A stretch of DNA of 64,000 nt. Origin: an uncultured Candidatus Saccharibacteria bacterium (GTDB lineage Bacteria; Patescibacteriota; Minisyncoccia; Minisyncoccales; 2-12-FULL-40-12). Each line of letters starts with the position of its first letter. The stretch's first letter is position 1. The notes beneath the pieces were generated by a model, which was not told the DNA's origin, did not search any database, and worked only from the letters and a program-made list of their open reading frames with translations. Of the stretch, positions 5,554 through 39,205 are shown in pieces. The DNA is taken from positions 2,856-66,855 of the forward strand of contig CAZFEY010000001.1 in the NCBI GenBank assembly GCA_964518135.1. The letters are read 5' to 3'. A program made the translations under genes and the position numbers.

Positions 5554-8500
5554 CTAAATCGCGAATCTATTCTGAATGACTCCCGATTTAACATTCATGA
5601 CTTTCGAAGTAAAGATGTGGGAATAAGAGCCGTCGTCATTTTTCTTTTCGATCTTAAGGTAATATTTGCCTGGCGGAACAAGAATATAATATCTTCCATA
5701 TTGATTAGCGACTCTTTTTACCATCTCTTTGTCAACATCGGCATTAAATATTCTTAATATCGCAAATGACAAGGGAAGTCCGGTATCTTTTTCCGATAAA
5801 GTTCCAAAGGTTCTTGTTTTGATATTTAAAGATATAAGCACGCCCAAAAGCATATACAAAAGAACCACGATCAGGTTTGCGCGCTCGGGAGCCAAAAGAA
5901 CGCTTACTATTGCCGAGGCAAAACCAACAACAAATAAAATATCTGCCAACTGCCTAAAAGTAATTTCTGTTTGAGAATAAAGTTTCATCAAATTCTTTTG
6001 CTTTTTGGCAAATTCATTCCAGTCGAACTTTTCTCTATCTAACGGAATGTCTCTCGCGACAACGTCTCCTTTTTCACCCACCTCAACTTCGCCACCAAAA
6101 TAAAGATTACTATATATTTCATCGTTGCTTCTGCCGTAAAGTGCTTTTGATGGGAATTTATAGTGGGTTTTATTGGCTACCATGGTGTATTTACCAGGTT
6201 CTGCCAAAAATCCATACCGACCATCCAAATCAGTAATCGACGTGGTTACCTCCTCGCCTTTTTCGTTCTGTAACATTACATAGGCTGGGTCTAATGGCTG
6301 TTTTGTGATTGAGTCATAAACGGTACCCCAACCTTTGCTCTTACGCTTTAATCCAAACGCAATCATAAGCGATGACAGTAATCTTAGAAGTTGCAAGCCC
6401 CAATTAGCCGGTGAAATCGGTATAAACCCAATTAATCCCAACCCACTCACAATCAATCCAGTCATTGCAATTGCCTTGGCAGTATCCTCTGCTGCGGGAC
6501 TATTTAACCAGCCACGGACAATATCAATAATACCTTTCTGCTCTTCTTCCTCTTCTGGAACTGCTGGCACGCATCTCTCCTCGGTCCATTCTTCTATGGA
6601 AATATATTCTTGTTCGATCTCACACCATTGAGTACCCGGAGGAACACATCTGTCCACCGTCCACTCTTCTTCTGGCATATATCTTTGTTCAACTTCGCAC
6701 CATCTCGCTCCGTCGGTAACACATCTCCTTTCGGTCCAATCTTGTTCTGGTATATACTGCCTTTCTTTCATGCACCACTTAAGAATAGGAGTTATACACC
6801 TTCCTTCGGTCCACTGTTCTATCGGTATGTATTGTTTTTCCGCTCCGCACCATTTGGTGCCCGGGGGAGTACAACGTTCTTCTGTCCAATCTTGCTCTGG
6901 AATAAAATGCTGTTCAAACTCACACCACTTAGCGCCTTCGGGCACGCATCTCTCCTCGGTCCATTCGTCTTGAGGTATAAACCTTTGTTCGTCTTCGCAC
7001 CATACTGTTAATGGCGGAGGGACGCATCTATCAACGCTCCATTCTTCTTCGGGTATGAATTGCTGCTCGGCTTCGCACCAAAGAGTTCCGTCAGGCGCGC
7101 ATCTTTCCTCGGTCCATTCGTCTTGAGGTATAAATTGTTGTTCTTTCTCACACCATTGATTTACCGGCCCTCCACCACCTCCAGGGACATCACACCTTGC
7201 GCTTGTCCATTCTCCTTGAGGTATAAAAGCATTTTCTTTGACGCACCAGGTCATCACCGCAGCTGGGAACCAATTAATGTTATTGCCATTATCTACAAAA
7301 TGAACTGGATCAATCGGCAGAGCCGCTTGGTTAACCGAATTCCCAACGTTCACGAAATCAACATTCCAAGCAGCAGGATTAATATTCCATTGGTCAGCTC
7401 CGGCTCCTCCTGCTCTCTCAAGGTTAATATTGTTTCCAGCCGCTCCAGCAATTTCCCAACTAGCCGGGCTTGTAATTGTTTGAGTGGAGTCTGATTGGAA
7501 AGCCAAAGTTTTGCCCGGTGTCGTGCAGCTAAAATTCCAAAAAGTAGAGTTACCACTGATGGTTGAGGTTTGGGTCGCATCATTAAAGGTAACTGTGTTA
7601 TTGCTATGAGAAAATATTCCATTCTTAGTCCAATTACTACCCAAAGTGATATTTTTACCATCGGCATTAAGATTTGCGGCGGCATCTATTGTTAGACTGC
7701 CAGTTAAAGCATTGGCTCCGGTCAGATTTCCCACCGGAACATATGTTTCAGCTCCGGAAAACTGAATTGAATTATAGGTGGTGGTTGTAACATTAATATT
7801 TCCCGCAGCATTCGTTGCTGAATACTGAACAGTGGAATTAGTTCCAGGAGTCAAAGTGCCATTAACAGTTAAAACTGTTGCTACGGCTCCGGCATTGGCA
7901 AGGTTCAATATGTACCCATTAGAGGCGAGATCCAACGTATTGTTAGCATTAACGGTCATTATGTCCGCAGTCATTGAGGAAGCCAAGGTCAGCTCATTTC
8001 CTGCTCCTCCGCCAATAACTACTGCTCCAATATTTTGCTTAACCGCTGTGGAGTCGGTGTAGTTATTGTCTTCGACTCCATCAAAAGTTAAAGTTCCTCC
8101 TTTAGTGTAGGTAGTGCCTGCGTCTAAAGTAAAGTTGCCGGCATAATTCTGGCTCAAAGCATTGGTGTCAAAAGTACCAGCTGATTGTAAAAAATTTCCA
8201 TCAACATCTAAAGCATTGTTGGTTAATTGTAGGATTCCGGCTCCGGAGTGGGTTAGATGATTGAAAAGGAATCCCGCTCCTACTCCTCCGGAGTCCAGGG
8301 CTTGGGTGCCGGCGGCAGCGCTAAAAGTAACAAGACCCTCTCTTGGAGTAAATGTTCCATTATTATCCCAATTACCGGCCAGAGTAATATTATAATCACC
8401 ACCAAAAACAGCATCTAGGGTAGCGCCGTTATCAATGGTTAAGCTTCCCGTTAAAGCATTTGCGCCAGTATGATTACCTTCTAAAATATAAGTTTCAGCG

Positions 8501-11500
8501 CCAGAAAGTTGTAAGCTACTATAGGGCGTAATGGTAACGGTTATATTTATAGCGCCATTCACTCCTGAATATTGTACCGTAGAGGTGCCAGGATTAAGAG
8601 TCCCGGTTACTCTTAGTACGTGTGCGATTTCTGCAGGGTCAGCCCAAATACCACTAGATCCGCCTGCTAAATTTAAAGTATAGCTACCTACACCTAGATT
8701 TAAGGTAGTGCTAACATCTAAGGAATTCACGGTCATCGAAGAAGCCAATGTAATTTCCTTTCCAACGCCACCCCCAATAATAACCTCTCCGATATCTTGT
8801 TTTACAGCTGTTGAGTCCGTATAAATTGCCGTATCTGTTGCTCCATCAAAAGTTAGAGTTCCGCCTTTGGTATAAGTAGTGTCTGCATCAAGAGTAAAAC
8901 TGCCAGCGTAGTTTTGGTCTAAAGCGTTAGTATTAAAGGTACCTGCCTGAAGGCGAAAATTGCCATCCACATCAAGAGGACTGTTGGCAAGAGTTAACAT
9001 CCCGCCTCCTGTATAATCTATGGTTAGATTCCAAAAAGCGCTTGCTCCAGGGTCTAGGAGTGGAAAGGGCGGAGGAGCGCCGGGATAATCAAAAACAACT
9101 GTATTGTTGCCATGGGTGAAAATAGCTGAATTTGCCCAACCGCTACCACCACCAACATACATATCCTGCCCGTTAGCATTAAATATGCCTGCCGAATTAA
9201 TAAAACCACCATCTATGTCAACCGCATTCGTAATGAGTCTCAATGTTCCATCGCCAGAGTGAGTAAGACCATTAAAAGATTTGCCAGCGCCCACTCCTCC
9301 GGAATTCAAATCTTGAGTTCCAACTCCGGCATTAAAAGTAACAGTATTAGACCTTGGGGTAAATGTTCCGGCATTAGACCAATTACCAGCCAAAGTAATG
9401 TTGTAGTTTTGACCATCAACAGCGTCTAAGGTAGCGCCACTATCAATTGTTAAACTTCCAGTCAAAGCATTGCCGCCCGTAAGATTACCTAAAAGTTCAT
9501 AGGTTTCAGCTCCAGAAAACTGCAAAGAGTTATAAGTCGTAGTAGTAACCTCGATATTGTTGCCTACGATAACTCCGGAATATTTCACCGTGGAAGTACC
9601 CGGCGTAAGAGTACCTATTACGATTAGTGAATCCCCGACCCCATCCCCATGAACAGCAGCCGTAAGAACACCTTGTAAATCTAAGGTGTAGTTATTAGAA
9701 TTTAAATCTAAAACATTGTCTATGTTGATAGTCATCGTATCCACGGTCATACTGGATAGTAAAGTAAGCTGATTGTCTGGAGGGGCGGCGGCGGCGGACA
9801 ACAACCTAACCGTCCCTATGTTTTGTTTTGTGTCATTGGAATCAGTATAGGTTATCCCGAGACCATGATTAAAGGTAACTGTTCCGCCCTTAGTGTAAGT
9901 AGTGTTGGCTAAAAGCTCAACATCGCCAGAAAAAACTTGGCTCAATCCATTAGCATCGAAAGTTCCTCCTTGAAGCGAAAAAGTCCCATCTACATCTAAT
10001 AAGTTGGTGTCAAGTTGTTTAATTCCAGCGTTGCTTAAAGTAAGGTTATAAAAACTACTATTTGGACCGTTGTCTATGGTTTGAGTTCCAGCTGCGGCGT
10101 TGAAGGTAACTGTGCCACTTCCGGGAGTAAAAACCCAATTATTATCCCAATTGCCAGCTAAAGTAATTCCGTAGTTTTGAACGACATCAGCGCTCAAAGT
10201 TGAAACATTATCTATGGTTATATTTCCGGTTAAAGCGTTGGCGCCTGTTAAATTGCCCAATAATACATAAGTCTCGGCGCCAGAAACCTGAAGAGAATTG
10301 TAGGTGGTATTGGTAACTAGCATATTGCCCCCTCCAAAAACCGCTGAATACTTCACCGTGGAGGTTCCGGGAGTAAGGGTTCCGTCAACACGCAGCGAAT
10401 CCCTCTCGGCTGGATGCCCTGGCAGGGGCACTAAAAACACATCTTTTAAATCTAAAACATAACTATTCGAACCTAAATCGAGAGTGTTGTCGGCATCAAT
10501 CAACATTGTGTCCACGGTCATATTAGACGCAAGAGTAATCTTTTTCCCTGCTCCGCCACCGATAACAACGGTCCCAATATTTTGTGTCGCGGCCGTGGAA
10601 TCGGTATAAATCGCAGTATCTGTCGCTCCATCAAAGGTTAAAGCACCTCCTTTGGTATAACCAGTACCCAAATCCAAAGTAAAGCCACCTGCGTAATTTT
10701 GGTTTAGAGCGTTAGCGTTAAAGGTTCCATCCTGGAGACGGAAGTTGCCATCTACATCGAGATTATTGGTATCGAGAGCTATACTTCCACCTGCTCCGCT
10801 AAGATTTATGGTAAGATGCCAAAAAGAACTTGAACCGTTATTTAAGGTGTATACTGCGATTTCTGTACCATTGAATTCAACTGTGCTTGAACCGGGAGTA
10901 AAGGTACCGGAATTAGACCAGTTTCCTGAAAGAGTAGCAGTATAAGTTTCAGCGTTAAAATTTGCGCCGGCCTGGATAGTAACATCGTCAGAAATTAAGT
11001 TACCGCCCGGGGTATAAGTTTTATTCGTCCAGACAATAAAATCAACTCCCGCATCTAATGTTAGATCGCTACCAGCCACCGAAAAAGGAACTGCTAGCCC
11101 GCCTTCGCCAGTAGAAAAATCTGCATTTGTTATTGGCCCCGCTGTTTCATGTCTGGCAGTAACAGTATCAAGGCTGGAAACTGTAAAATCAGCTATGTTT
11201 GTGGTAGTCGTTGCAACAGTAACTATAGCCACATCTTCGCCAGCGCCGCCCGAGTAAAAAGTAATAATATCGCCATCGCTAAAATAATGCTGCATTGTAA
11301 AGGTAATGTTGGCGCCTGCCAATATATCGGATGTTGCTGGCACCAAGCTAGTGGGTAAACCCCCATTTATCGCTATTGTCGTGTCATTTAAATTATCTCC
11401 GCTATTATTAAATACAGTAATGTCTATCTGAAAAAGCCAATTGGTATTATTGTCAGAGTTAGTTGAGGTAATAGCCGTAACGGTTCCACCATTAATACTG

Positions 11501-12726
11501 TTAGAATCTTTAACGTCTACGTATGTAACCGAGACAGATGCGGCAGCGACAACATCTACCTCCCATTGACTTCCTGGCGTAGTACTCCTTAAGACAATTT
11601 GGTTGGCGCCGGCACCTCCAGTTAAAAGAAGATTGGTAATAGTCTGGGTTGTACCATCGGTGAAGGTAATTTGTTTGGCAGCGGTTATAGAAGTAAAGTT
11701 TTCGAATGTCGTAGAGCCAGAGATTGTTGACACCTTGCCACTGTCGTTAAAAGTCACCGAAGGATTTGCTCCATTAAAAGAACCACTCGTAAAAGCCCAA
11801 CTGCCAGATAATGCTATGGTACCGCCTACATTATATGTGGCGCCATTCAAAGTAAAATTCCCTGAAATAGTTAGTACGCTGGGATCGTTGAAGATCCCGC
11901 TAGTCAAATCAACATTACCAGTAACGCTCAATCTGTTGCCGAATACTTCTAAGACATTGTAAGTTCCGCCGGATTGGGTAAAATTACCACCGACAATAAG
12001 GTTTACAGCCACACTCAATCCTCCTCCAGATAAATCAACATTGCCAGTGGTCTCTGTATTCCCAGTACTTGTAAATGTTCCTCCTGCCACACTTAACGAA
12101 CTAGCCGTGATAGCATTACCCCCATCAGAAAAAGCAGCGATGCTGTTGGCACCAGCCATCGCGAAAGCTCCCATACCCGGTATTGCCACCGTCAAAGATA
12201 TTGAGCCGTCATATCCGTCTGTGGCACCCGCGTCGCCCGTAATAGTTAATGATTCTCCAGCTGATCCCCAAGTGCCGAGATTGTCAATGGTGACATTTTT
12301 ATCATTGGTGCTGTTAAAAGTTACTGTGTCTCCAGCGGCTGGGGCGCCATCTGGCAACCAGTTAAGATCATCTGACCAGTTTTCTGTTAATCCTTCACCG
12401 TCCCAAACTTTTGCTTCGGCCTTGACTAAAAAAGGAATAGAGGAAAACAATACCAGAATCAACAAAAATAATGTTCCAAATAAAGAAAGCCAGTGGGTAA
12501 TCTGGGCGTAAGGATTCAGATGCCAACGGTAATACGCAACTGATTTTCGTAATAAGTATCTATGCAAAGGAGCCAACTGCGGAATAGTGGTTTTTTTGGC
12601 AGAGTATGGAATCAGAAAAAGCCATTCGTTGAGCTCTTGGACTTTTTTTGAACGTTCCCTTTTCTCTTTCTCCATTTTAGCGATTCGCCTTTCTTCTTTT
12701 GTTTGAAAAATCCGCCCAAAGGCCAT
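5554..12726 (-). CDS. giant (2390 aa) membrane-anchored surface protein: N-terminal signal-anchor, long parallel beta-helix/autotransporter-like repeat region, 9x 25-aa Cys-pair repeats, C-terminal TM helices with two carboxypeptidase-regulatory-like beta-sandwich domains
   Basis: Repeated 'GNLTGANALTGSLTIDN...NITLAGNW.N.GTFTP...TVTFNA..GTQ' units; tandem WCE.EQ.FIP..EWTEERC.P repeats; 'GTVYDSITKQPLDPAYVMLQNEKGEEVTTSITDLDGRYGF...GKYTMV' CarboxypepD_reg-like; several hydrophobic helices near C-terminus. Confidence 0.8.
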   Translation of the reverse strand: MAFGRIFQTKEERRIAKMEKEKRERSKKVQELNEWLFLIPYSAKKTTIPQLAPLHRYLLRKSVAYYRWHLNPYAQITHWLSLFGTLFLLILVLFSSIPFLVKAEAKVWDGEGLTENWSDDLNWLPDGAPAAGDTVTFNSTNDKNVTIDNLGTWGSAGESLTITGDAGATDGYDGSISLTVAIPGMGAFAMAGANSIAAFSDGGNAITASSLSVAGGTFTSTGNTETTGNVDLSGGGLSVAVNLIVGGNFTQSGGTYNVLEVFGNRLSVTGNVDLTSGIFNDPSVLTISGNFTLNGATYNVGGTIALSGSWAFTSGSFNGANPSVTFNDSGKVSTISGSTTFENFTSITAAKQITFTDGTTQTITNLLLTGGAGANQIVLRSTTPGSQWEVDVVAAASVSVTYVDVKDSNSINGGTVTAITSTNSDNNTNWLFQIDITVFNNSGDNLNDTTIAINGGLPTSLVPATSDILAGANITFTMQHYFSDGDIITFYSGGAGEDVAIVTVATTTTNIADFTVSSLDTVTARHETAGPITNADFSTGEGGLAVPFSVAGSDLTLDAGVDFIVWTNKTYTPGGNLISDDVTIQAGANFNAETYTATLSGNWSNSGTFTPGSSTVEFNGTEIAVYTLNNGSSSFWHLTINLSGAGGSIALDTNNLDVDGNFRLQDGTFNANALNQNYAGGFTLDLGTGYTKGGALTFDGATDTAIYTDSTAATQNIGTVVIGGGAGKKITLASNMTVDTMLIDADNTLDLGSNSYVLDLKDVFLVPLPGHPAERDSLRVDGTLTPGTSTVKYSAVFGGGNMLVTNTTYNSLQVSGAETYVLLGNLTGANALTGNITIDNVSTLSADVVQNYGITLAGNWDNNWVFTPGSGTVTFNAAAGTQTIDNGPNSSFYNLTLSNAGIKQLDTNLLDVDGTFSLQGGTFDANGLSQVFSGDVELLANTTYTKGGTVTFNHGLGITYTDSNDTKQNIGTVRLLSAAAAPPDNQLTLLSSMTVDTMTINIDNVLDLNSNNYTLDLQGVLTAAVHGDGVGDSLIVIGTLTPGTSTVKYSGVIVGNNIEVTTTTYNSLQFSGAETYELLGNLTGGNALTGSLTIDSGATLDAVDGQNYNITLAGNWSNAGTFTPRSNTVTFNAGVGTQDLNSGGVGAGKSFNGLTHSGDGTLRLITNAVDIDGGFINSAGIFNANGQDMYVGGGSGWANSAIFTHGNNTVVFDYPGAPPPFPLLDPGASAFWNLTIDYTGGGMLTLANSPLDVDGNFRLQAGTFNTNALDQNYAGSFTLDADTTYTKGGTLTFDGATDTAIYTDSTAVKQDIGEVIIGGGVGKEITLASSMTVNSLDVSTTLNLGVGSYTLNLAGGSSGIWADPAEIAHVLRVTGTLNPGTSTVQYSGVNGAINITVTITPYSSLQLSGAETYILEGNHTGANALTGSLTIDNGATLDAVFGGDYNITLAGNWDNNGTFTPREGLVTFSAAAGTQALDSGGVGAGFLFNHLTHSGAGILQLTNNALDVDGNFLQSAGTFDTNALSQNYAGNFTLDAGTTYTKGGTLTFDGVEDNNYTDSTAVKQNIGAVVIGGGAGNELTLASSMTADIMTVNANNTLDLASNGYILNLANAGAVATVLTVNGTLTPGTNSTVQYSATNAAGNINVTTTTYNSIQFSGAETYVPVGNLTGANALTGSLTIDAAANLNADGKNITLGSNWTKNGIFSHSNNTVTFNDATQTSTISGNSTFWNFSCTTPGKTLAFQSDSTQTITSPASWEIAGAAGNNINLERAGGAGADQWNINPAAWNVDFVNVGNSVNQAALPIDPVHFVDNGNNINWFPAAVMTWCVKENAFIPQGEWTSARCDVPGGGGGPVNQWCEKEQQFIPQDEWTEERCAPDGTLWCEAEQQFIPEEEWSVDRCVPPPLTVWCEDEQRFIPQDEWTEERCVPEGAKWCEFEQHFIPEQDWTEERCTPPGTKWCGAEKQYIPIEQWTEGRCITPILKWCMKERQYIPEQDWTERRCVTDGARWCEVEQRYMPEEEWTVDRCVPPGTQWCEIEQEYISIEEWTEERCVPAVPEEEEEQKGIIDIVRGWLNSPAAEDTAKAIAMTGLIVSGLGLIGFIPISPANWGLQLLRLLSSLMIAFGLKRKSKGWGTVYDSITKQPLDPAYVMLQNEKGEEVTTSITDLDGRYGFLAEPGKYTMVANKTHYKFPSKALYGRSNDEIYSNLYFGGEVEVGEKGDVVARDIPLDREKFDWNEFAKKQKNLMKLYSQTEITFRQLADILFVVGFASAIVSVLLAPERANLIVVLLYMLLGVLISLNIKTRTFGTLSEKDTGLPLSFAILRIFNADVDKEMVKRVANQYGRYYILVPPGKYYLKIEKKNDDGSYSHIFTSKVMNVKSGVIQNRFAI
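6540..7290. repeat. about 9 diverged tandem about 75-bp repeats (encode 25-aa WCE...ERCVP units on minus strand)
   Basis: Periodic recurrence in protein and in spurious plus-strand ORFs (repeated '...LSSVHSS...'). Confidence 0.7.
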
Positions 12727-14289: not shown

Positions 14290-14385
14290 CGACAGTTCTG
14301 GTGGACCCAGGCGGACTCGAACCGCCGTTTCCGCAATGCGAATGCGACGTCTTACCGCTGGACCATGGGCCCGCCAGAACTGTCG
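14290..14385. repeat. perfect 12-bp inverted repeat (cgacagttctgg / ccagaactgtcg) bracketing tRNA-Ala
   Basis: Arms at 14290-14301 and 14374-14385; arms include the CCA end; would form 12-bp leader/trailer stem around the pre-tRNA. Confidence 0.7.
14299..14372 (-). tRNA. tRNA-Ala (anticodon CGC), CCA encoded
   Basis: RC: GGGCCCA-TG-...-TCGCA-TTCGCAT-TGCGG-AAAC-GGCGG-TTCGAGT-CCGCC-TGGGTCC-A-CCA; G3:U70 alanine identity pair present. Confidence 0.85.
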
Positions 14386-14398
14386 AGGATCCTCGTAT

Positions 14399-14647
14399 TT
14401 ATAAATTTTTTGAAATTAATCCTTCGATCGCACGTCTCTTTTTCCAAGATTTAATCTGCAACTCTCTTTCTTTGGCATCTTTTAATAATCTATACTCTTC
14501 TTTATGCACAATTTCCCAGGGAATATATCTTTTCGTAGATTTAACTAGGCCTTTGTTATGTAAGCTAATTCTTATTTCCAAATCTTCACAACTACCGATA
14601 TAAAATGAATTATTTTTCTCAGATTTTAAAATGTATGTATAAAACAT
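14399..14647 (-). CDS. small GIY-YIG nuclease-domain protein (82 aa)
   Basis: 'MFYTYILKSEKNNSFYIGSCEDLEIRISLHNKG' GIY-YIG motif; paralog of 80..352. Confidence 0.75.
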   Translation of the reverse strand: MFYTYILKSEKNNSFYIGSCEDLEIRISLHNKGLVKSTKRYIPWEIVHKEEYRLLKDAKERELQIKSWKKRRAIEGLISKNL

Positions 14648-14715
14648 TTTAAAAAATTTATAAATCGGGACGAATGCGCCGTTCTGCCATTTAACTACAG
14701 GCCCTACTATATATA

Positions 14716-14812
14716 TGTCGGGGTGCCGGGAATTCCCGCCTGCCTATCACTATCGCTTTAGGCGATGGCGGGCAGGGAACCCGAATTACTGACTTTCACC
14801 TACCGTCGCCTT
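14716..14812 (-). other. tRNA-like conserved element (acceptor-like stem + T-arm-like CGGG-TTCCCTG-CCCG); uninterrupted copy of the element that hosts tRNA-Arg at 16795-16945
   Basis: Shares 'GGGTTCCCTGCCCGCCAT...AGGCAGGCGGG' with 16821-16931; contains 'GGTAGGTGAAAGT' similar to GIY-YIG cassette inverted repeat; the spurious ORFs beginning 'MAGREP' are its translation. Confidence 0.35.
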
Positions 14813-14820
14813 ATTTTGTC

Positions 14821-14893
14821 GGGGTACCCAGATTCGAACTGGGGTCACACGAACCCGAATCGTGTATACTACCACTGTACTATACCCCGTATC
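14821..14893 (-). tRNA. tRNA-Pro (anticodon CGG), no encoded CCA
   Basis: RC: CGGGGTA-TA-GTAC..GTAT-A-CACGA-TTCGGGT-TCGTG-TGAC-CCCAG-TTCGAAT-CTGGG-TACCCCG-A; fully Watson-Crick acceptor, U8, G37. Confidence 0.8.
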
Positions 14894-14894
14894 A

Positions 14895-15160
14895 GGCTTA
14901 TGGCGGACGAGGCCGAAGCCAGCGTAATACCGTTATACCACACCCCGAAAAACTCCCCCAGACAAGATAATATGGATTTTGGGACAATCCGCAACCTTCA
15001 ACAAAACAAATCCTCAAGAGCAAGGGATTTTATTGCTTGGGGAACATCCGCAGGCAAATTGCATGGTTCCGCGAAGCGGAAATTTGCCGAGGAACCGAGC
15101 TTGTCCCGCGCTGGCGGGACAGGGCGTATCCCCAAATATAAAATCCTTGAAGCTCCCCCC
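14895..15160. ncRNA. candidate structured non-coding RNA (GC-rich, nested hairpins and a pseudoknot), family unknown
   Basis: GGCAAATT...AATTTGCC 8-bp inverted repeat enclosing CCGC-GAAG-GCGG hairpin; loop GGTTCC pairs with downstream GGAACC; GTCCCGC-GCTG-GCGGGAC hairpin; GC about 48%; no convincing ORF. Confidence 0.3.
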
Positions 15161-16692
15161 TAACTCACCCAATACTTTTTCTTCGTCATCTCATCCTTTT
15201 TTACTATCAATTGTTCTTTGTCTTTCCTAGATTTTTTAACTAAAGACGTTAATTCTTTATCGGACAACTTACCTAGCTTTTCAGTTTCTTTTTTTAAAAA
15301 CGCTTTTTTGTTGTTTTTTGGATCTTCCAAGATAATCCCCAATAAAATATCCAAAATTTGTCCAACTTTCGGTCCTGGTTTCATTTTCAGAATTTTCATA
15401 ACATCATTCCCTGAAACCTTCAGCATTTTTGCCGAAATCGGGTCTTGCGAGACTTTATCAATGATATATTTAAGATGTCTTAATTTGTATGGTTCGGCCT
15501 TGGGAACGCCAGAACCAATTCTATCTGCCATTCTTAATTGCAAAAGTTCTTCCATATTTTCTATTCCTACCTGACGAACCAGCCTGCGCACAGACGACTC
15601 TCCAACCTCGTCCACATTATAATAAAATAGGTGATAACGAACTAGTTTTGTTATTTTCTCAATGTCTTTATTGGAAAATCTAAGACGATCTAGAATCTGA
15701 CGAGCCATTTTGGCCCCGACAATTTCGTGCCCATAAAAAGTTGAATCTGACCCTTCGCCATGCTTAACTCTTGGCTTTGCAATATCGTGCAACAAAGAGG
15801 CTATTCTTACGTTCTTGTTAAAATTTTTCTTTGCGGCAAAGTCGAGCGCCCTCATATTATGCTCATAACAAGAGTATATATGATGTTTATTCTGACCAAT
15901 ATTATAACCCTCTTCAAGTTCTGGCAAGATATGTTTCAAGAGCGAAAGTTCTCTTAACAACTCTATCCCGCCCATTGCACTTTCTGACATTATAATTTTC
16001 GAAAACTCGTCTCTTATTCTTTCTTGCGAAATATACCTAATCAAATCAGAGTTTTCCTTAATGGCTTTGGCCGTTTCATTTTCTATGTTCCAACCCATTG
16101 TGGTCGCAAAACGAACAGCCCTCATCATTCTCAAAGCGTCTTCTGAAAACCTTTCTCTGGGATTTCCAACGGCTCTAATCAGCTTTTGTTGTAAATCTTC
16201 CTGCCCATTAAAAAGATCTACGACCTTAAAACCTAAATCTTGAAGCTTAAAATCTGAATCTTTTTTTGTCGGTGCTTTAAGCTTTAAGCTTCGCGCTTCA
16301 AGGCCTAACGCTATTGCGTTTACTGTAAAATCGCGCCTAGCTAAATCTTCTTCAAGATTTTTAGCAAAACCGATGTTGTCTGGATGGCGCTTGTCCGTGT
16401 ATTTCGCTTCTTTTCGGAAGGTAGTAATTTCAACTTCTTTCAGTGAAACTTTTTTGCTGCCAGTTTGAACTGTTACCGTAAGAAATTTATTTTCACAAAA
16501 ACTATCTGGGAATATCTTTTGTATCTCTTCTGGCTTAGCATCGGTAGTTATGTCCCAATCCTCGGGATCTGCTCCTCGTAAAATATCCCTAACACACCCT
16601 CCTACAACATAGGCACCATATCCGCTTTTATGAAGTTTTTGGATAATATTCTTTATTTCCTTCGGTATTTCTATTTTTACCATTAAAATCAT
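15160..16692 (-). CDS. cca: CCA-adding enzyme / poly(A) polymerase family nucleotidyltransferase with HD domain
   Basis: 'GAYVVGGCVRDILRG...DWDITT' Pol-beta NT motif, 'RDFTVNAIA', HD domain 'LLHDIAKP'. Confidence 0.85.
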   Translation of the reverse strand: MILMVKIEIPKEIKNIIQKLHKSGYGAYVVGGCVRDILRGADPEDWDITTDAKPEEIQKIFPDSFCENKFLTVTVQTGSKKVSLKEVEITTFRKEAKYTDKRHPDNIGFAKNLEEDLARRDFTVNAIALGLEARSLKLKAPTKKDSDFKLQDLGFKVVDLFNGQEDLQQKLIRAVGNPRERFSEDALRMMRAVRFATTMGWNIENETAKAIKENSDLIRYISQERIRDEFSKIIMSESAMGGIELLRELSLLKHILPELEEGYNIGQNKHHIYSCYEHNMRALDFAAKKNFNKNVRIASLLHDIAKPRVKHGEGSDSTFYGHEIVGAKMARQILDRLRFSNKDIEKITKLVRYHLFYYNVDEVGESSVRRLVRQVGIENMEELLQLRMADRIGSGVPKAEPYKLRHLKYIIDKVSQDPISAKMLKVSGNDVMKILKMKPGPKVGQILDILLGIILEDPKNNKKAFLKKETEKLGKLSDKELTSLVKKSRKDKEQLIVKKDEMTKKKYWVS

Positions 16693-16781
16693 TCTATCTT
16701 AAAAATTGATTTTTTCAATCTTTTGAGTTAGGCTTAAAAACAGCATAACGGTTAATATTTCCTAGCAAAATTATCTTATGC

Positions 16782-16950
16782 CCCCGTGGCAAGGCGCCTC
16801 GCTTCGGACGAGAAAATTGAGGGTTCCCTGCCCGCCATATTTGCCTCCATAGTGAAACGGATATCATACATGGCTTCGGACCATGAGTTCCGGGTTCGAA
16901 TCCTGGTGGAGGTACGGCAAGGCAGGCGGGGAGTCCTTTTGGGGGTACGA
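16782..16950 (+). other. degenerate tRNA-Arg-like outer element (acceptor GCCCCCG/TGGGGGT, anticodon-loop CTTCGGA) interrupted by intact tRNA-Arg
   Basis: Outer sequence has anticodon stem-loop CTCG-CTTCGGA-CGAG identical in loop to inner tRNA; halves 'GGGTTCCCTGCCCGCCAT' and 'AGGCAGGCGGG' are contiguous in the 14716-14812 copy. Confidence 0.3.
16843..16914 (+). tRNA. tRNA-Arg (anticodon TCG), no encoded CCA
   Basis: GCCTCCA-TA-GTGA..TCAT-A-CATGG-CTTCGGA-CCATG-AGTT-CCGGG-TTCGAAT-CCTGG-TGGAGGT-A; G1:U72 wobble. Confidence 0.8.
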
Positions 16951-17035
16951 TTATTTATTTTTGAGCGTAGCGAGAAAACATTTATTTTTATCGTAAAATG
17001 ATATATAATCCGAGAAGAATAATCCATATTGCAAG

Positions 17036-17455
17036 ATGAAAAAGATAATCCTAAATATAATTTTATTGTCTTTTATAATCGGCCTACCCTACATTGCTAA
17101 CGCACAACCAGTTGGCTTAGTGCCTTGCGGTAACATTGGCGAACCACCCTGTCAACTCTGCCACATATTTATTCTCTTTAATAACATTATCTCATTCTTG
17201 CTTGTTCCTGGTAATCCCTTTGGGGGATTCCCTGTGGTACTTGCTATCGCTGGACTAATGATATTATGGTCAGGATTCTTATATATAATGAGCTTTGGGG
17301 ACCCTAAGAACCTAATCAAATCAAGAGAAATACTAAAAGCAACGGGCCTTGGATTGTTAATAGTTTATGGCGCTTGGGCTGCTGTTAACACATTGTCATG
17401 GTTCGGCATTATTCCGAATAACTGGTTTACGATTAACTGCCCTATTATTCCTTAA
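17036..17455 (+). CDS. secreted VirB2/TrbC-like pilin-like protein (stand-alone, 139 aa)
   Basis: Sec signal peptide, then hydrophobic helices separated by short polar loop 'SFGDPKNLIKSREILKATG'; paralogous to N-termini of 27978.. and 33753.. proteins. Confidence 0.45.
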   Translation: MKKIILNIILLSFIIGLPYIANAQPVGLVPCGNIGEPPCQLCHIFILFNNIISFLLVPGNPFGGFPVVLAIAGLMILWSGFLYIMSFGDPKNLIKSREILKATGLGLLIVYGAWAAVNTLSWFGIIPNNWFTINCPIIP

Positions 17456-17462
17456 AAAACAA

Positions 17463-17496
17463 CGCGCCCGTAGCTCAATTGGCCCCGCACCCTCCA
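17463..17496 (+). pseudogene. tRNA 5' fragment (acceptor GCGCCCG + D-arm GCTC-AATTGG) directly abutting tRNA-Lys
   Basis: Canonical acceptor/D-arm start without remainder; partial complementary strand 'TAGGCGC' found 3' of tRNA-Lys (17590-17597). Confidence 0.35.
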
Positions 17497-17570
17497 TGCC
17501 CCCATAGCTTAATTGGTAAAGCAGGAACCTCTTAAGTTCAAGAGTCCAGGTTCGAGCCCTGGTGGGGGCA
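17497..17570 (+). tRNA. tRNA-Lys (anticodon CTT), no encoded CCA
   Basis: GCCCCCA-TA-GCTT-AATTGGTA-AAGC-A-GGAAC-CTCTTAA-GTTCA-AGAGT-CCAGG-TTCGAGC-CCTGG-TGGGGGC-A. Confidence 0.8.
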
Positions 17571-17655
17571 TAGAGCGTACGGGGCAAACCTAGGCGCAAT
17601 ACAATAATCAAGTCGAGATAATTAAGGTATTACTGTTAAACAACATACATTATAT

Positions 17656-20736: not shown

Positions 20737-23616
20737 ATGGTACAAGGCCAACAACAAACGGATAACCAAGATATTCTTAAGAAGGCCGAGATAAAAACAA
20801 TGCAGGCTGATATTTTGGCTGCCCAAAAAATATCTGACAAGAACGACCTAGCTACTCGAGAAAGAGAAATGGCAAGAAAAATAACAGAACAGAAAAGGGC
20901 CGAGGAAGAACGTAAAAAGATTGCCGCTCAAACCATAAAGAAAACTTTACCGACGCAAACTAAAAAAATTGACGAAAAAAAAGTGATCAATGATGGAGAA
21001 GAAGCTATTAAAAAATTTGAGGCGGATAGGAGGAAAGAAGAATCAGATGTTATAGCGAAAACAAACGTAAAAATCCAAGAAGAACAAAGAAAAAAAGAAA
21101 TAGCCGAACGGAAGGCCGCTGAAGAAAGGCGTCTCGAAGAAGAAAAAAAACAGAGAAATGCAGAAAAAGAAAAATTAAAACAAATAGAAGAAGCCCGAAA
21201 AAAAGAGATCGTAGCAATACGACAAAGAGAAGAAGCGATACTCGCGGCCAAAGAAGCAAGACGCATCAGGGAAAGGGAAATACTGCAATTAGAAGAAGAA
21301 AAAATATTATTAGAAAAAGGGCTTCAAGATATTTTGAGCAGAAGAGTTCCGCTAGAAACAGAAATAAACCAGCTTGCCAAGCGAGAATCTCAATTGCAGG
21401 AAAATTTGAATGAAGTCTCGAAAAGAGAAGATGAGGTTGAAAGAGAAGTAAAAACAATTGAAGCTAAGGAAAAATCGGCCGACACAGAAGAGAAGAAGAA
21501 ACTTGAACAACAAAGATGGGAAATTGAAGAGAAGAGAAGGAGAGTAGAGAAAGAAAGGTGGGAATGGGAGGCAGAAATCGGTAAAGTAAAGGACCAAAAA
21601 AGAGAGGTTAGTTTAAGGTATAATAGACTTTTGACTAACGAAGAGGAAATCCTAGAGAGAAAAAGGGCAATCGCTGACAAACAAGAAGAAATTAAAATAG
21701 AAAATGAGAAAATAGAATTAGAAAAAGAATTACAAAGGTTAAAAGAGAAAAAATCTCCCCTAGAGATAGAGATTAATGCCATTTTGGAGAGAGAATCTCA
21801 ACTCCAAGCGAAACTAGACAGCGTTTCGAGTAAAGAGAATGACATTGAAAGAGAAATAAGCTCAATTGAAGACAGAGAAAAATCTACTGGCGTGACCGAG
21901 GGGAAAAAAGAGCTTGAACAACAAAGATGGGAGATTGAAGAGAAAAGAAGGGGAGTGGAAAAAGAGAGGTGGGAATGGGAGGCAGAAATCGGAAAAGTAA
22001 AGGACGACCTAAAAAGAATAGAAAATGAGTATCAAAAAATTCTCTTAAGAGAAAAGGAATTATTATTAAAACTACACCCAGAACAAATAACTAATTTATC
22101 TAACCGATTGGAAGAGGAAGAGAAAGCTACAATACCTACAAAAACAACACCTCCCTTACAAAAAAGAGAAAGGGCAGATGTTAAAATTTCCGAAAACAAA
22201 CCCGTAAAACCAGAACCCCAGAACAAGGAAGAAAACCTTGCCGACTCGACTATTTCTCAAAAGACAGCCGCGCCAGAAAAAACGCAACTGGACAACCATC
22301 AAGAGAAACAACATCTAGACGAGACAATAAATAGACAAATGGAAGTGCTAAAAGAGATCGAACGTCTTAAGGCAGAAACAGAAAAAGAAAAACAACAGAC
22401 AAGAAACGAAGGAGAGGTAGCGCAAACACAGGTAAATATAACCGTTGAATCAGCCCACGAGCAAGAGTCTGGGCAGACAACAACCATCCAATCCCAACCA
22501 GAACCGGCACTAGATCAGGAAGAGATAACCACGCATCAAGTACCACCCCAACCAATACCCATTAAACCGCAGAAATTCTGGATGAAAGAAGAGGCTAAAG
22601 CATTTGAAACGCAAACCAGAGATCCTCAAAAAGAAAGCGAGATTAAAAAGCGACTTGATGAAATCCAACAACAAGAAGAAATAGAAAGAAAAGAATTTTT
22701 AGAAAGGATTCAAGGAAGTGAATCGAAAAAATCGACCATTGGAAGAATTAATAAAGAAAATATTCCTATCAAGCCTCAACCAGAAACACCTGAAATTATT
22801 ACATCTATAGCGCCTCGGCCCTCTGCTTTTGGTAAATTCTGGTCAAGAATTTTAGCAACAATGATAGTTGTCGCCATCTTCGCTGGTGTGTTTTGGTTAA
22901 TTTACTGGACATTCTTTATCCGAAAAGCGCAAATCAAAACAACCTGGTGTGAAAACGAAAAAGTCCAGATACCGCAATCTGAATTCTCTCCAGAAAGATG
23001 CGTTCCGCCACCCATCGTGATTCCTGAAATTCGCGTTCCGCCAGATTTAATTAGTATTGCAACCAGAAAGGAAATTGTTGTTCCGGAAAAAGGAGATCCA
23101 TTAAAGGAGCTGGCAAGATTTTTAGAGGAAAATGGCGAAGAACTAGAACAAAATAAGCCTACCAGGATAGTAATAAAGAGCCTCGATAAAAAGGAAGTGC
23201 TTGGTTTTGAGGATTTTTTCAATCTTTTTAAGGCAACTGTGCCAGATGGTTTTTATTCTAAAATCAACAAAGACTTTAATCTTCTTATCTACCCACAGAA
23301 AGAAGGACGAAGATGGGGCATAATAAGCCAAATTACAACCCAAGAAGGCGTTGATGTTGTTGGCGAAACAGTAACTATGCTTCGGCTTTGGGAAGACAAA
23401 ATGGATCAAAATCTCCAAACTCTTTTTGTATTTTTTGGAAAAACAGAACCAGCCATAAATGATTTCTTCACCAGAGTGCCGTATGGAAACATAAACATAC
23501 GTTGCCAGACTTTCAGCAAAGAGGATTTTGGCGATTGCTACGCTATAAAAGGAAACAGTTTCGTTTTAACCACCTCCTTAGAAAGTATAAAAAAAATATT
23601 AGACGAAATAAAATAA
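20737..23616 (+). CDS. K/E-rich coiled-coil membrane protein (959 aa) with internal about 136-aa duplication, one TM helix, and C-terminal domain bearing the WCENE...ERCVPPP Cys-pair motif
   Basis: Heptad-like charged repeats; 'QQRWEIEEKRR.VEKERWEWEAEIGKVKD' present twice; TM 'ILATMIVVAIFAGVFWLIYWTFFI' followed by motif shared with giant protein. Confidence 0.65.
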   Translation: MVQGQQQTDNQDILKKAEIKTMQADILAAQKISDKNDLATREREMARKITEQKRAEEERKKIAAQTIKKTLPTQTKKIDEKKVINDGEEAIKKFEADRRKEESDVIAKTNVKIQEEQRKKEIAERKAAEERRLEEEKKQRNAEKEKLKQIEEARKKEIVAIRQREEAILAAKEARRIREREILQLEEEKILLEKGLQDILSRRVPLETEINQLAKRESQLQENLNEVSKREDEVEREVKTIEAKEKSADTEEKKKLEQQRWEIEEKRRRVEKERWEWEAEIGKVKDQKREVSLRYNRLLTNEEEILERKRAIADKQEEIKIENEKIELEKELQRLKEKKSPLEIEINAILERESQLQAKLDSVSSKENDIEREISSIEDREKSTGVTEGKKELEQQRWEIEEKRRGVEKERWEWEAEIGKVKDDLKRIENEYQKILLREKELLLKLHPEQITNLSNRLEEEEKATIPTKTTPPLQKRERADVKISENKPVKPEPQNKEENLADSTISQKTAAPEKTQLDNHQEKQHLDETINRQMEVLKEIERLKAETEKEKQQTRNEGEVAQTQVNITVESAHEQESGQTTTIQSQPEPALDQEEITTHQVPPQPIPIKPQKFWMKEEAKAFETQTRDPQKESEIKKRLDEIQQQEEIERKEFLERIQGSESKKSTIGRINKENIPIKPQPETPEIITSIAPRPSAFGKFWSRILATMIVVAIFAGVFWLIYWTFFIRKAQIKTTWCENEKVQIPQSEFSPERCVPPPIVIPEIRVPPDLISIATRKEIVVPEKGDPLKELARFLEENGEELEQNKPTRIVIKSLDKKEVLGFEDFFNLFKATVPDGFYSKINKDFNLLIYPQKEGRRWGIISQITTQEGVDVVGETVTMLRLWEDKMDQNLQTLFVFFGKTEPAINDFFTRVPYGNINIRCQTFSKEDFGDCYAIKGNSFVLTTSLESIKKILDEIK

Positions 23617-30533: not shown

Positions 30534-30592
30534 AAAATCTTAGCGGAAATATTTTAATAACCCCACTTTGAGTTGTTGATAAAATATTATTT

Positions 30593-33766: not shown

Positions 33767-33776
33767 CATAACATCA

Positions 33777-35465: not shown

Positions 35466-35486
35466 TATTGAATATTTAAAAAACCG

Positions 35487-37070: not shown

Positions 37071-37095
37071 AATAATAAATTTAAAATAAAAAACT

Positions 37096-37566
37096 ATGCC
37101 CGAAGAATTTGATATTCAAAAAGTAAAAGAAAATTACCCTGAAATACTAGAGATAATACCATCAGAAATCATAGACCTAGCCACTTCGGAAGATACTCAA
37201 AATAGCATCGCTGGTATTTGTATTGATAACGACATAGAAAGCGAAGAGATCATTGAAAATATTGCTTATTATATAGGTCTATCTTTGTTGGGCGAGTTGC
37301 CTATTCAACAATTAACAGACACTCTTGTTGAGAAAGTAGGATTAGAGCATGGCTTAGCGGAAAAAATATATACAGAAATCGATCAGGTAATATTTGATAA
37401 GGTTCGAAGTTCTTTGGAAGAATTATACAAGAAAAGAGATCAAGAAATAACAGAAGGAGAAATCGATGAATTATCCGAAGAACAAGAAGATTCTAGCGCG
37501 CCAGAAACGCAAAAAGCAGGAGATCAAGAATCAACAAAAGACACTTACCGAGAAAATATTGAATAA
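37096..37566 (+). CDS. acidic hypothetical protein
   Basis: pI clearly acidic, no motifs. Confidence 0.45.
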   Translation: MPEEFDIQKVKENYPEILEIIPSEIIDLATSEDTQNSIAGICIDNDIESEEIIENIAYYIGLSLLGELPIQQLTDTLVEKVGLEHGLAEKIYTEIDQVIFDKVRSSLEELYKKRDQEITEGEIDELSEEQEDSSAPETQKAGDQESTKDTYRENIE

Positions 37567-37634
37567 GTAAACTCAATTCCTCCGGAATTAAACAGGCTTG
37601 ATTCTGACGAATAAAAAAGAGGGCGAGATTCCTC

Positions 37635-38974: not shown

Positions 38975-38989
38975 TGTTTTCTCCTTATC

Positions 38990-39180: not shown

Positions 39181-39205
39181 GTTTGTTGCTAATGCAATAA
39201 AGCAT

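What the first reader, a model, noticed from the sequence alone, without database searches (positions are those of the whole stretch)
6540..7290. Novel 25-aa Cys-pair repeat (W-C-E-x-E-Q-x-F-I-P-x-x-E-W-T-E-E-R-C-V-P) shared by the giant protein (x9) and the 959-aa coiled-coil protein (x1)
Nine tandem copies with a strictly conserved W, two Cys 16-17 residues apart, IP and ERC lie between the beta-helix region and the C-terminal TM block. A single copy, WCENEKVQIPQSEFSPERCVPPP, follows the TM helix of the 20737.. protein at about nt 22940-23020.

A short disulfide-stapled, membrane-proximal repeat shared by two otherwise unrelated envelope proteins suggests a common stalk or interaction module. 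I do not recognise it as a named family.
Basis: seen in the sequence. Interest (0 to 1): 0.6.

Follow-up and report, generated by a model that had tools for sequence, protein, structure and literature searches.

The report
New disulfide-loop stalk module in surface proteins
A real, previously uncatalogued 19-residue two-cysteine mini-domain sits just outside the membrane in two envelope proteins of a Parcubacteria (CPR) genome, and about two dozen other rare proteins carry it; it most likely acts as a disulfide-closed stalk or spacer bead.

Summary
The 2390-aa ORF (5554-12726, minus strand) carries nine tandem copies of [WF]-C-x2-E-x3-I-P-x2-E-W-[TS]-x2-R-C (C-x16-C) at nt 6553-7248. A tenth copy lies 8 residues after the TM helix of the 959-aa ORF (nt 22945-23019).

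An HMM built only from copies found elsewhere scores all ten at 27-39 bits. The next best hit in the six-frame window scores 5 bits.

The module matches nothing in Pfam, NCBIfam or PDB sequences. A profile scan of 1.84 billion representative proteins plus DNA-pattern scans gave 25 distinct proteins with 67 distinct copies. These are Parcubacteria orthologues, proteins from MAGs labelled Woesearchaeota, Nanoarchaeota and Bacillota, and ORFan-dense contigs.

In 19 of the 25 proteins the array lies within 45 residues of a TM segment. The rest are flanked by poly-Pro linkers. CarboxypepD_reg or PEGA domains recur among the carriers tested.

AlphaFold2 (pLDDT 83) predicts a beta-hairpin plus short helix per module. 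There is no significant fold match.

The copies are old: synonymous sites are scrambled. They are under strong purifying selection, and three orthologues keep nine copies in positional register.

The best reading is an extracytoplasmic, disulfide-closed bead used as a juxtamembrane stalk. A docking role remains possible. I rate this a new domain family of a familiar general kind, of moderate interest.

The parts
5554..12726 (-). Giant 2390-aa envelope protein. It has a basic cytoplasmic N-terminus, a signal-anchor TM (aa 83-101), about 1700 aa of Gly/Thr/Asn-rich repeat units, the nine-module array, and a C-terminal membrane block.
   Evidence: The exact protein is present in public assemblies (Parcubacteria group bacterium, KKP93787-like cluster).
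12424..12480 (-). N-terminal hydrophobic signal-anchor of the giant (aa 83-101), followed by VKAEA|K. Everything up to aa ~2085 is therefore expected outside the cell.
   Evidence: Hydropathy scan. The topology is inferred.
6553..7248 (-). Array of nine WC...RC modules (aa 1827-2058). Net charge is -31, with 18 Cys, 18 Trp and 22 Pro.
7156..7248 (-). Module 1 (31 aa): WCVKENAFIPQGEWTSARC plus linker DVPGGGGGPVNQ
   Evidence: 35.4 bits with the external HMM
7081..7155 (-). Module 2: WCEKEQQFIPQDEWTEERCAPDGTL
   Evidence: 38.7 bits
7003..7080 (-). Module 3 (26 aa): WCEAEQQFIPEEEWSVDRCVPPPLTV
   Evidence: 34.9 bits
6928..7002 (-). Module 4: WCEDEQRFIPQDEWTEERCVPEGAK
   Evidence: 34.1 bits; modelled
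6853..6927 (-). Module 5: WCEFEQHFIPEQDWTEERCTPPGTK
   Evidence: 35.0 bits; modelled
6778..6852 (-). Module 6: WCGAEKQYIPIEQWTEGRCITPILK
   Evidence: 31.0 bits; modelled
6703..6777 (-). Module 7: WCMKERQYIPEQDWTERRCVTDGAR
   Evidence: 26.7 bits
6628..6702 (-). Module 8: WCEVEQRYMPEEEWTVDRCVPPGTQ
   Evidence: 29.6 bits
6553..6627 (-). Module 9: WCEIEQEYISIEEWTEERCVPAVPE, followed by an EEEEQ acidic tail
   Evidence: 30.5 bits
5557..6552 (-). C-terminal membrane block (aa 2059-2390). It has hydrophobic helices at about aa 2086-2104, the weaker, non-threshold LQLLRLLSSLMIAFGL stretch that follows, and aa 2260-2302. Each helix group is followed by a CarboxypepD_reg/transthyretin-like beta domain. 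The same block follows the module arrays in P0009, P0010, P0015, L008, L010 and L016.
   Evidence: 44-75% identity. The AF2 model is low confidence, so only its secondary-structure order was used.
20737..23616 (+). 959-aa protein. It has a ~700-aa Lys/Glu-rich coiled-coil with no signal peptide, one TM, one WC...RC module, and a ~200-aa C-terminal domain with a second conserved Cys pair (aa 923/934).
22825..22920 (+). Single hydrophobic TM stretch of the 959-aa protein (aa 697-728)
22945..23019 (+). Module 10: WCENEKVQIPQSEFSPERCVPPPIV. It sits in the Pro-rich juxtamembrane linker. The only detectable orthologue lacks it: P0008 (41% identity) reads FIRKA-PAPSAPPAPPPEIIVVPEI, whereas this protein reads FIRKA-QIKTTWC...RCV-PPPIVIPEI.

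Best explanation
The repeat is a genuine, uncatalogued protein module of about 19 core residues plus a 5-7-residue Pro-rich linker. Its consensus is PPGT[KR]-[WF]-C-E-x-E-[QN]-x-[YF]-I-P-x-x-E-W-[TS]-E-x-R-C-V-P-P.

It lies on the extracytoplasmic side of the membrane. It folds into a tiny beta-hairpin (K-W-C / x-[FY]-I-P) followed by a one-turn helix (T-E-E-R-C). The loop is closed by a C2-C19 disulfide. W1, F/Y8 and W14 form the mini-core, T/S15 caps the helix, and E5 and R18 probably form a salt bridge.

Strung together by PPxxK linkers, the beads form an acidic, protease-resistant and hydrophilic stalk. This stalk holds a passenger domain at a set distance from its membrane anchor. In the giant protein, nine beads separate the ~1700-aa repeat region from the C-terminal TM/CarboxypepD_reg block. 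In the 959-aa protein, one bead stiffens the juxtamembrane linker between the TM helix and the C-terminal ectodomain.

Shown here: the module is real, its residues are conserved, it is rare, its architectural position is as described, it is under purifying selection, and its secondary structure is predicted with confidence.

Inferred: the disulfide, the outside topology, and the spacer function.
For: Reality and conservation. There are 67 distinct copies in 25 proteins. C2, E5 and C19 are present in 67/67, R18 in 64/67, W14 in 62, W1 in 61, P10 in 59 and I9 in 58. The Cys spacing is fixed at C-x16-C.

Cysteine bookkeeping. In the giant 18 of 19 Cys are in modules, in the L010 fragment 18 of 18, in P0015 4 of 4, and in P0021 and P0022 2 of 2. 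This points to an intramodule pair.

Fold. AF2 on copies 4-6 with a 14-row alignment gave mean pLDDT 83. Each module shows strand-turn-strand-short helix. A pTM of 0.49 fits beads with flexible joints.

Position. The array lies within 45 aa of a TM in 19 of 25 carriers, on either the N- or the C-side. It is flanked by P-P at positions -5/-4 and +21/+22. In L009 and L012 it acts as a poly-Pro-flanked linker between PEGA domains.

Copy number. It varies between architectures that share the same C-terminal anchor: 2 in P0015, 3 in P0010, at least 3 in L016, at least 6 in L008 and 9 in the giant. Yet it is fixed at nine, with copy-by-copy positional orthology, in three orthologues. That pattern fits a length-setting element.

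Selection. Window versus L010 gives module cores pN 0.128 with pS 0.89 (saturated). Linkers give pN 0.255. Paralogous copies share few codons.

Conserved versus variable positions. The conserved positions all look like fold determinants. The variable positions (3, 4, 6, 7, 11, 12, 16, 17) are charged or polar, so no conserved binding surface is evident.

Plausibility of disulfides. ORFs with an N-terminal hydrophobic segment (taken as exported) have 1.37% Cys, against 0.58% in the remaining window ORFs, and several reach 2.6-4.7%. CPR bacteria are enriched in MdbA-like oxidoreductases, often adjacent to VKOR (PMC6744442).
Against: No coordinates were available, so the C2-C19 distance in the model was not measured, and AF2 cannot tell a disulfide from a shared metal site. 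The source organism comes from an aquifer, where oxidative folding is not guaranteed, and no MdbA or VKOR gene was identified in the parts of this 64-kb window that were scanned. The topology of the C-terminal block is unresolved: a KRKSK cluster follows the hydrophobic pair, and the AF2 model has pLDDT 49. A passive spacer does not by itself explain why several contigs carry two or three module proteins with complementary anchor topologies. No experiment exists.
Confidence: 0.45

Rival explanations
1. Docking or zipper module. The juxtamembrane beads of separately anchored proteins bind each other, through strand pairing or disulfide exchange. A protein with TM-then-module (the 959-aa coiled-coil protein) would thereby be coupled to one with module-then-TM (the giant), forming an envelope complex.
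For: Module genes co-occur on the same contig although the module is extremely rare (about 25 proteins found in scans of 1.84 billion representative proteins, one genome per species and the metagenome contigs). The window has the giant plus the 959-aa protein. L005 has adjacent genes, a 461-aa protein with module then C-terminal TM and a 272-aa protein with N-terminal TM then module. L019 has three genes, two with N-TM then module and one with module then C-TM. The 959-aa protein has the module while its only detectable orthologue lacks it.
Against: Any lineage-restricted, shufflable module is expected to co-occur within a genome. Five other contexts of 7-21 kb hold a single carrier (L008, L013, L017, L021, L023). 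Nine tandem copies are not needed for docking. No conserved surface patch exists beyond the fold-determining residues. No interaction test was possible.
Confidence: 0.22
2. Metal-binding knuckle. The two Cys, perhaps with E5, coordinate Zn or Fe. This could occur within a module, or between two modules or two proteins in the manner of a zinc hook, rather than forming a disulfide.
For: The predicted hairpin-helix shape and the best, though non-significant, Foldseek neighbours are zinc-finger arrays (Cep104, Stc1, TRAF-type). The invariant acidic E5 could be a ligand. The habitat is anoxic. An even pairing of modules could supply Cys4 sites.
Against: Each module has only two thiols and no His. 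Single-module proteins with exactly 2 Cys exist (P0021, P0022). Odd copy numbers occur (9, 3, 1). The location is extracytoplasmic. All structure matches have E > 0.4, so they carry no weight.
Confidence: 0.1
3. Cell-wall or host-surface ligand-binding repeat. In this reading it is an aromatic-rich short repeat like the choline-binding or cell-wall-binding repeats. It would tether the proteins to a wall polymer or to a host-cell glycan.
For: Each 25 aa holds three conserved aromatic residues. The modules are arranged in tandem. They occur in surface proteins that also carry PEGA or CarboxypepD_reg domains.
Against: There is no hit to CW_binding or any other binding-repeat family. The aromatics are predicted to be core rather than surface residues, although this was not measured. 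Single copies are common. The exposed positions are variable and strongly acidic.
Confidence: 0.08
4. Chance similarity or a low-complexity artefact, with the tenth copy being coincidental.
For: The motif is short and rich in E. Three of the 17 hits in the profile scan were false positives (P0013, P0019, P0024).
Against: The external-copy HMM gives 29.1 bits and E = 3.9e-8 for the 959-aa copy, against 4.9 bits for the best noise. The Cys spacing is invariant. Purifying selection is evident. The AF2 model is confident.
Confidence: 0.01

Closest known systems
C2H2-type zinc-finger arrays (beta-beta-alpha beads joined by short conserved linkers)
   Same: Both have a unit size of roughly 25-30 aa. 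Both are predicted as a hairpin plus helix and are arranged in tandem with a short conserved linker (PPGTK here, TGEKP there). The top Foldseek neighbours, though non-significant, are zinc-finger arrays.
   Different: There are no His ligands and only two Cys at C-x16-C. The location is extracytoplasmic. No sequence or significant structural match exists. Closure is presumably by a disulfide rather than Zn. The resemblance is one of shape only.
Small disulfide-closed extracellular repeat modules of eukaryotic receptors (LDL-receptor class A, EGF-like, PSI)
   Same: These too are acidic, Cys-stapled mini-domains used in tandem as stalks or spacers of membrane proteins. LRP2, CD320 and plexin appear among the non-significant Foldseek hits.
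   Different: Those modules have 6-8 Cys in 35-50 aa and often bind Ca2+. This module has one Cys pair in 19 aa, shows no homology, and is prokaryotic.
Wall-spanning or stalk regions of Gram-positive surface proteins (Pro-rich regions, Rib, and the SasG E/G5 repeats; recalled from general knowledge, not tested here)
   Same: Both are repeat arrays placed between a functional passenger and the membrane or wall anchor. In both, copy number sets the length. Pro-rich joints are present in both.
   Different: Those repeats are 70-130 aa, lack Cys and belong to established families. The anchor here is a polytopic TM block or a single TM helix rather than LPXTG.
CarboxypepD_reg / PEGA (transthyretin-like) surface domains
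   Same: These are the recurrent partners of the module in the carriers tested: the giant, P0016, P0017, P0020, L009 and L012.
   Different: They are separate ~80-aa beta-sandwich domains. The module is not part of them and also occurs without them.

Membership tests
Any Pfam-A or NCBIfam family | hmmscan score at or above the family's curated cut-off on the repeat region | tested here: not met
   The 250-aa array gave only fn2 (E 0.55) and UCR_14kD (E 0.59) in Pfam, and nothing in NCBIfam. Ten further carriers showed no hit over the module.
Any protein with a solved structure | Sequence-profile match to a PDB chain, or a significant Foldseek match to the AF2 model | tested here: not met
C2H2 zinc finger | C-x2-4-C ... 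H-x3-5-H ligand set | tested here: not met
   The consensus has exactly two Cys 17 positions apart and no conserved His.
C2H2 zinc finger | beta-beta-alpha fold | tested here: inconclusive
   AF2 secondary structure is E-E-H per module. Coordinates were not inspectable and there is no significant fold match.
Choline-binding / cell-wall-binding repeats (CW_binding_1-like) | Pfam match; ~20-aa Gly/aromatic hairpin repeat lacking Cys | tested here: not met
   No hit. The module has invariant Cys and no conserved Gly.
C-terminal sorting signals (LPXTG, PEP-CTERM, PGF-CTERM type) | A single short motif immediately before a C-terminal TM helix and basic tail | tested here: not met
   Some carriers end module-TM-KR (P0012, the L005 461-aa protein, the L019 154-aa protein). 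However, the module also follows N-terminal anchors, occurs internally, and is repeated up to nine times.
Proposed new family ('WC...RC' juxtamembrane module) | [WF]-C-x2-E-x3-[IV]-P-x2-[EDQ]-[WYF]-[TS]-x2-R-C with fixed C-x16-C | tested here: met
   All ten window copies fit, with copy 8 (M-P) and copy 9 (I-S) each departing at one position of the I-P pair. They score 26.7-38.7 bits with an HMM built from unrelated carriers.
Proposed new family ('WC...RC' juxtamembrane module) | Extracytoplasmic, next to a TM anchor or a Pro-rich linker | tested here: met
   By hydropathy scan only: the giant's array ends 33 aa before a TM and the 959-aa copy starts 8 aa after a TM. Sidedness is inferred from the signal-anchor and the absence of a signal peptide.
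Proposed new family ('WC...RC' juxtamembrane module) | Intramodule C2-C19 disulfide | not testable with these tools
   Supported indirectly by Cys bookkeeping and the AF2 model. It needs mass spectrometry or a structure.

The most novel reading that the evidence does not exclude
The module is a cross-domain juxtamembrane coupling device of ultra-small episymbionts. It would be shared by CPR bacteria, DPANN-labelled archaea and ORFan-rich mobile or virus-like elements. Under this reading, beads on separately anchored proteins lock together just outside the membrane. In this genome that would tie the cytoplasmic ~700-aa coiled-coil scaffold of the 959-aa protein, through its single TM, to the nine-bead stalk of the giant adhesin-like protein. 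The result would be a trans-envelope link between an internal scaffold and an external attachment organelle.
Probability: 0.1. Interest if true: 0.75.

Novelty: new variant of a known kind. Interest (0 to 1): 0.5.

Why it matters
CPR and DPANN organisms live attached to other cells, and their large surface proteins are almost entirely unannotated. This work adds one recognisable building block to that dark proteome: a compact, confidently modelled module with a crisp signature. The module marks the juxtamembrane stalk and therefore helps parse the topology and domain boundaries of such giants.

It is extremely rare, with about 25 proteins found across scans of 1.84 billion representative proteins, one genome per species and the metagenome contigs. 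It nevertheless turns up under bacterial and archaeal MAG labels and on ORFan-dense contigs. That spread hints at exchange of envelope parts among ultra-small cells and their mobile elements.

At 19 residues, a disulfide-closed beta-beta-alpha bead would be among the smallest autonomous folds. It could serve as a rigid linker for protein engineering. None of this changes a major paradigm unless the docking reading proves true.

Tried and rejected
(1) The search for homologous proteins with the 237-aa array and with a 20-row double-unit alignment returned nothing. The word index does not reach these short diverged units, and the query's own cluster is not reported.

(3) The strict DNA pattern found nothing in IMG/VR. 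A relaxed pattern gave three hits, all chance matches containing stops. tblastn against 50,697 phage records found no match. The 'viral' flavour of some contexts therefore rests only on ORFan density.

(4) PHROGs gave no hit for the module carriers.

(5) AF2 of the last two modules plus the C-terminal anchor gave pLDDT 48.7. It was not used for fold search or for topology.

(8) A recent gene-conversion origin for the 959-aa copy is rejected. It is only 49-63% identical at nucleotide level to every giant copy.

(9) A sorting-signal reading, a lipobox and heme CXXCH were considered and rejected on motif and position.

(10) Radical-SAM or RiPP-type crosslinking was considered. The neighbouring genes whose Pfam families were seen are housekeeping (NusA, ClpP, UPF0102, Vut_1, PNPase), and none is a radical-SAM enzyme.

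(11) Literature searches for a described equivalent found none.
Full report
WHAT IS IN THE SEQUENCE

The window comes from a Parcubacteria (CPR) genome from the Rifle aquifer data set. The 959-aa protein is identical to KKQ76959/KKP93796, named 'Parcubacteria group bacterium GW2011_GWC1_38_6' and its UR98 relative. The giant protein falls in the KKP93787 cluster.

ORF 5554-12726 on the minus strand encodes 2390 aa without interruption. Nine tandem units lie at aa 1827-2058, which is nt 6553-7248. Their period is 25 aa, except copy 1 (31 aa) and copy 3 (26 aa). In the ten window copies W1, C2, E5, R18 and C19 are invariant. I9 and P10 are each kept in 9 of 10, and W14 in 9 of 10. The two Cys are always separated by exactly 16 residues.

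Of the giant's 19 cysteines, 18 are these pairs. The array is very acidic: net charge -31, with 22 Pro and 18 Trp.

The tenth copy, WCENEKVQIPQSEFSPERCVPPPIV, is at nt 22945-23019 of ORF 20737-23616. It starts eight residues after that protein's only hydrophobic helix.

The + strand ORFs over the array (6610-7011 and 7060-7494) are antisense by-products of the repeat.

IS IT MORE THAN CHANCE?

I built an HMM from 29 copies found in other proteins. None came from the giant, its orthologues or the 959-aa protein. I searched this HMM against the six-frame translation of the window.

All nine giant copies scored 26.7-38.7 bits. The 959-aa copy scored 29.1 bits (E = 3.9e-8). The next best segment scored 4.9 bits. 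The window holds no further copies.

At nucleotide level the copies are 49-84% identical. Identical residues mostly use different codons, and TRF detects only 2.6 weak copies. The array is therefore old and is maintained at the protein level.

Against the orthologous fragment L010, the module cores have pN 0.128 with synonymous sites saturated (pS 0.89). The linkers between modules have pN 0.255.

Three orthologues all keep nine copies: the window protein, P0009 and L010. Each copy is most similar to the copy at the same position in the other orthologues.

IS IT A KNOWN FAMILY?

- Pfam-A and NCBIfam give nothing on the array.
- A 40-copy profile finds no PDB chain at E<=10.
- A profile of the ten window copies was scanned against 1.84 billion representative proteins and gave 17 hits at E<0.001. 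Fourteen are true, all carrying the C-x16-C signature. Three are false: P0013, P0019 and P0024.
- A degenerate DNA pattern found one locus among 185,579 species-representative genomes (L005), eleven metagenome loci (L006-L016) and none in IMG/VR.
- A phage tblastn found nothing.

Together this gives 25 distinct proteins and 67 distinct copies. C2, E5 and C19 are present in 67/67, R18 in 64, W14 in 62, W1 in 61, P10 in 59 and I9 in 58. T or S occupies position 15 in 65. P-P is enriched on both flanks.

WHERE IT OCCURS

Two architectural classes appear.

(a) Tandem arrays of 2-9 units sit directly upstream of one conserved C-terminal membrane block. That block has hydrophobic helix pairs, each followed by a CarboxypepD_reg-like beta domain. 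It is 44-75% identical to the giant's block. The N-terminal passengers differ: the giant's Gly/Thr/Asn-rich units, a GW-type repeat protein (P0010), and a DUF11 protein (P0015).

(b) One to four units lie next to a single TM anchor. They either follow an N-terminal anchor (P0014, P0016, P0018, P0020-23, L011 and the 959-aa protein) or precede a C-terminal anchor with a basic tail (P0012, P0017, the L005 461-aa protein, the L019 154-aa protein).

In 19 of the 25 proteins the array is within 45 residues of a predicted TM. The exceptions place it inside poly-Pro linkers, in L009 and L012 between PEGA domains.

CarboxypepD_reg or PEGA domains recur among the carriers tested.

Names attached by the sources are 'Nanoarchaeota archaeon' (P0015, on a 2-kb contig), 'Candidatus Woesearchaeota' (P0017) and 'Bacillota bacterium' (P0016 and P0027). 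These labels rest on binning and were not verified here.

Several contexts are dense arrays of small co-directional ORFs with almost no Pfam hits (L005, L017, L019, L021, L023). Their nature is unknown. IMG/VR and PHROGs give no support for a viral label.

STRUCTURE

AlphaFold2 was run on copies 4-6 with a 14-row alignment of natural two- and three-copy segments. It gave mean pLDDT 83 and pTM 0.49.

Each module is predicted as strand (A/K-W-C), turn, strand (x-F-I-P), loop, and a four-residue helix (E-E-R-C). This is a beta-beta-alpha bead whose first and last core residues are the two cysteines. The moderate pTM alongside high per-residue confidence fits well-defined beads with flexible joints.

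Foldseek finds nothing significant in PDB (best E 2.1) or BFVD (best E 0.45). The non-significant top hits are zinc-finger arrays and LDLR-A, PSI and chitin-binding modules.

I could not open the coordinates, so the S-S geometry was not measured.

MECHANISM

Shown: a real, conserved, rare module that is extracytoplasmic by position and has a confident mini-fold prediction.

Inferred: the cysteine pair closes the bead as a disulfide. The reasons are as follows.

- Both Cys are invariant at a fixed spacing.
- Carriers exist whose only cysteines are the module pairs (P0021, P0022, P0015 and the L010 fragment).
- The 959-aa ectodomain has a second Cys pair that is conserved in its orthologue.
- ORFs with an N-terminal hydrophobic segment (taken as exported) are 2.4-fold richer in Cys than the remaining ORFs.
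- CPR genomes are reported to be enriched in MdbA-like thiol-disulfide oxidoreductases, often adjacent to VKOR (PMC6744442).

The remaining conserved residues read as fold determinants. There are three aromatics for a mini-core, I-P ending strand 2, a T/S helix cap, and an E5-R18 pair. The exposed positions vary and are charged.

Several features together make a length-setting, hydrophilic, protease-resistant stalk or spacer the most economical function:

- the Pro-rich joints;
- the placement between passenger and anchor;
- a copy number that differs between architectures but is fixed among orthologues.

I put this at about 0.45.

RIVALS

Docking between separately anchored proteins is the main rival, at about 0.22. 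Module genes co-occur on three of eight multi-gene contexts. The window has the giant plus the 959-aa protein. L005 has two adjacent genes. L019 has three genes. In each case the anchor topologies are complementary. Also, the 959-aa protein has the module where its 41%-identical orthologue has only a Pro-rich linker.

However, any lineage-restricted shufflable module would co-occur in this way, and the other five contexts hold one carrier each.

A metal-binding knuckle (about 0.10) and a wall- or ligand-binding repeat (about 0.08) are not excluded. Chance is excluded.

NOVELTY AND SCORE

Small disulfide-closed repeat modules used as stalks are a familiar idea. This one has no detectable sequence or fold relative and no database entry. 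Its distribution is very narrow and centred on ultra-small groundwater and sediment prokaryotes. It is best described as a new domain family, a new variant of a known kind.

Interest is moderate (0.5). The finding is useful for annotating CPR and DPANN surface giants, and it is intriguing because of the cross-label distribution and the paired-anchor co-occurrence. It is not paradigm-changing unless the coupling hypothesis is borne out.

Noticed in passing
window 27978-42473 (+), and 17036-17455 (+): A type-IV-secretion-like cluster. It holds three exported, very Cys-rich proteins: 851 aa with 33 Cys and a weak NlpC/P60 hit, 1057 aa with 30 Cys, and 570 aa with 15 Cys. It also holds a 527-aa polytopic protein and a VirB4/TraG-P-loop ATPase (40265-42067). 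A T4SS_pilin-like 139-aa protein lies at 17036-17455.
   Followed up: partly
window, all ORFs: ORFs with an N-terminal hydrophobic segment contain 1.37% Cys, against 0.58% in the others. The 301-aa exported protein at 53160-54065 has 4.65% Cys. This fits routine extracytoplasmic disulfide use in this organism.
   Followed up: partly
window 5557-6552 (-); P0010, P0015, L008, L016: The giant's C-terminal membrane block has hydrophobic helix pairs, each followed by a CarboxypepD_reg-like domain. It is a conserved anchor cassette (44-49% identity) that follows module arrays under quite different passengers. One of those proteins is labelled Nanoarchaeota, on a 2-kb contig. This could reflect inter-domain transfer or mis-binning.
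   Followed up: partly
window 20737-23616 (+), aa 258 and 395: The coiled-coil part of the 959-aa protein contains an internal duplication of about 137 aa. QQRWEIEEKRR...WEWEAEIGKVKD occurs twice.
   Followed up: no
window 8698-8871 (-) (giant aa 1286-1343): Pfam 'Deoxyhypusine synthase' (PF01916) scores 28.9 bits, just above its cut-off of 27, inside the Gly/Thr/Asn-rich repeat region. The NCBIfam equivalogs are far below threshold (18 versus 304 bits). The hit is almost certainly spurious.
   Followed up: partly
window 7846-10368 (-) (giant aa 786-1636): The passenger region is itself built of long repeat units of about 250-340 aa, marked by PGT(S/N)(S)TVxYS at aa 786, 1042, 1379 and 1627. 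No Pfam family covers the region.
   Followed up: no
window 14299-17571: Four tRNA genes (Ala-CGC, Pro-CGG, Arg-TCG, Lys-CTT) lie between the two module-bearing genes.
   Followed up: no
L005 2837-4273 (-): The gene next to the two module genes on the 'Bacillota MAG074' contig encodes a 478-aa membrane protein with a JAMM/MPN-like HTHPSGIAKLSKAD motif and a C-terminal Cys-rich tail. Upstream lies an N-TM coiled-coil protein.
   Followed up: no
L019 7959-13823 (+): A 44.5-kb ORFan-dense contig carries three module proteins within 6 kb, together with SLT and SH3-like genes. It could be a mobile element or virus of an uncultured host, but neither IMG/VR nor PHROGs supports that.
   Followed up: partly
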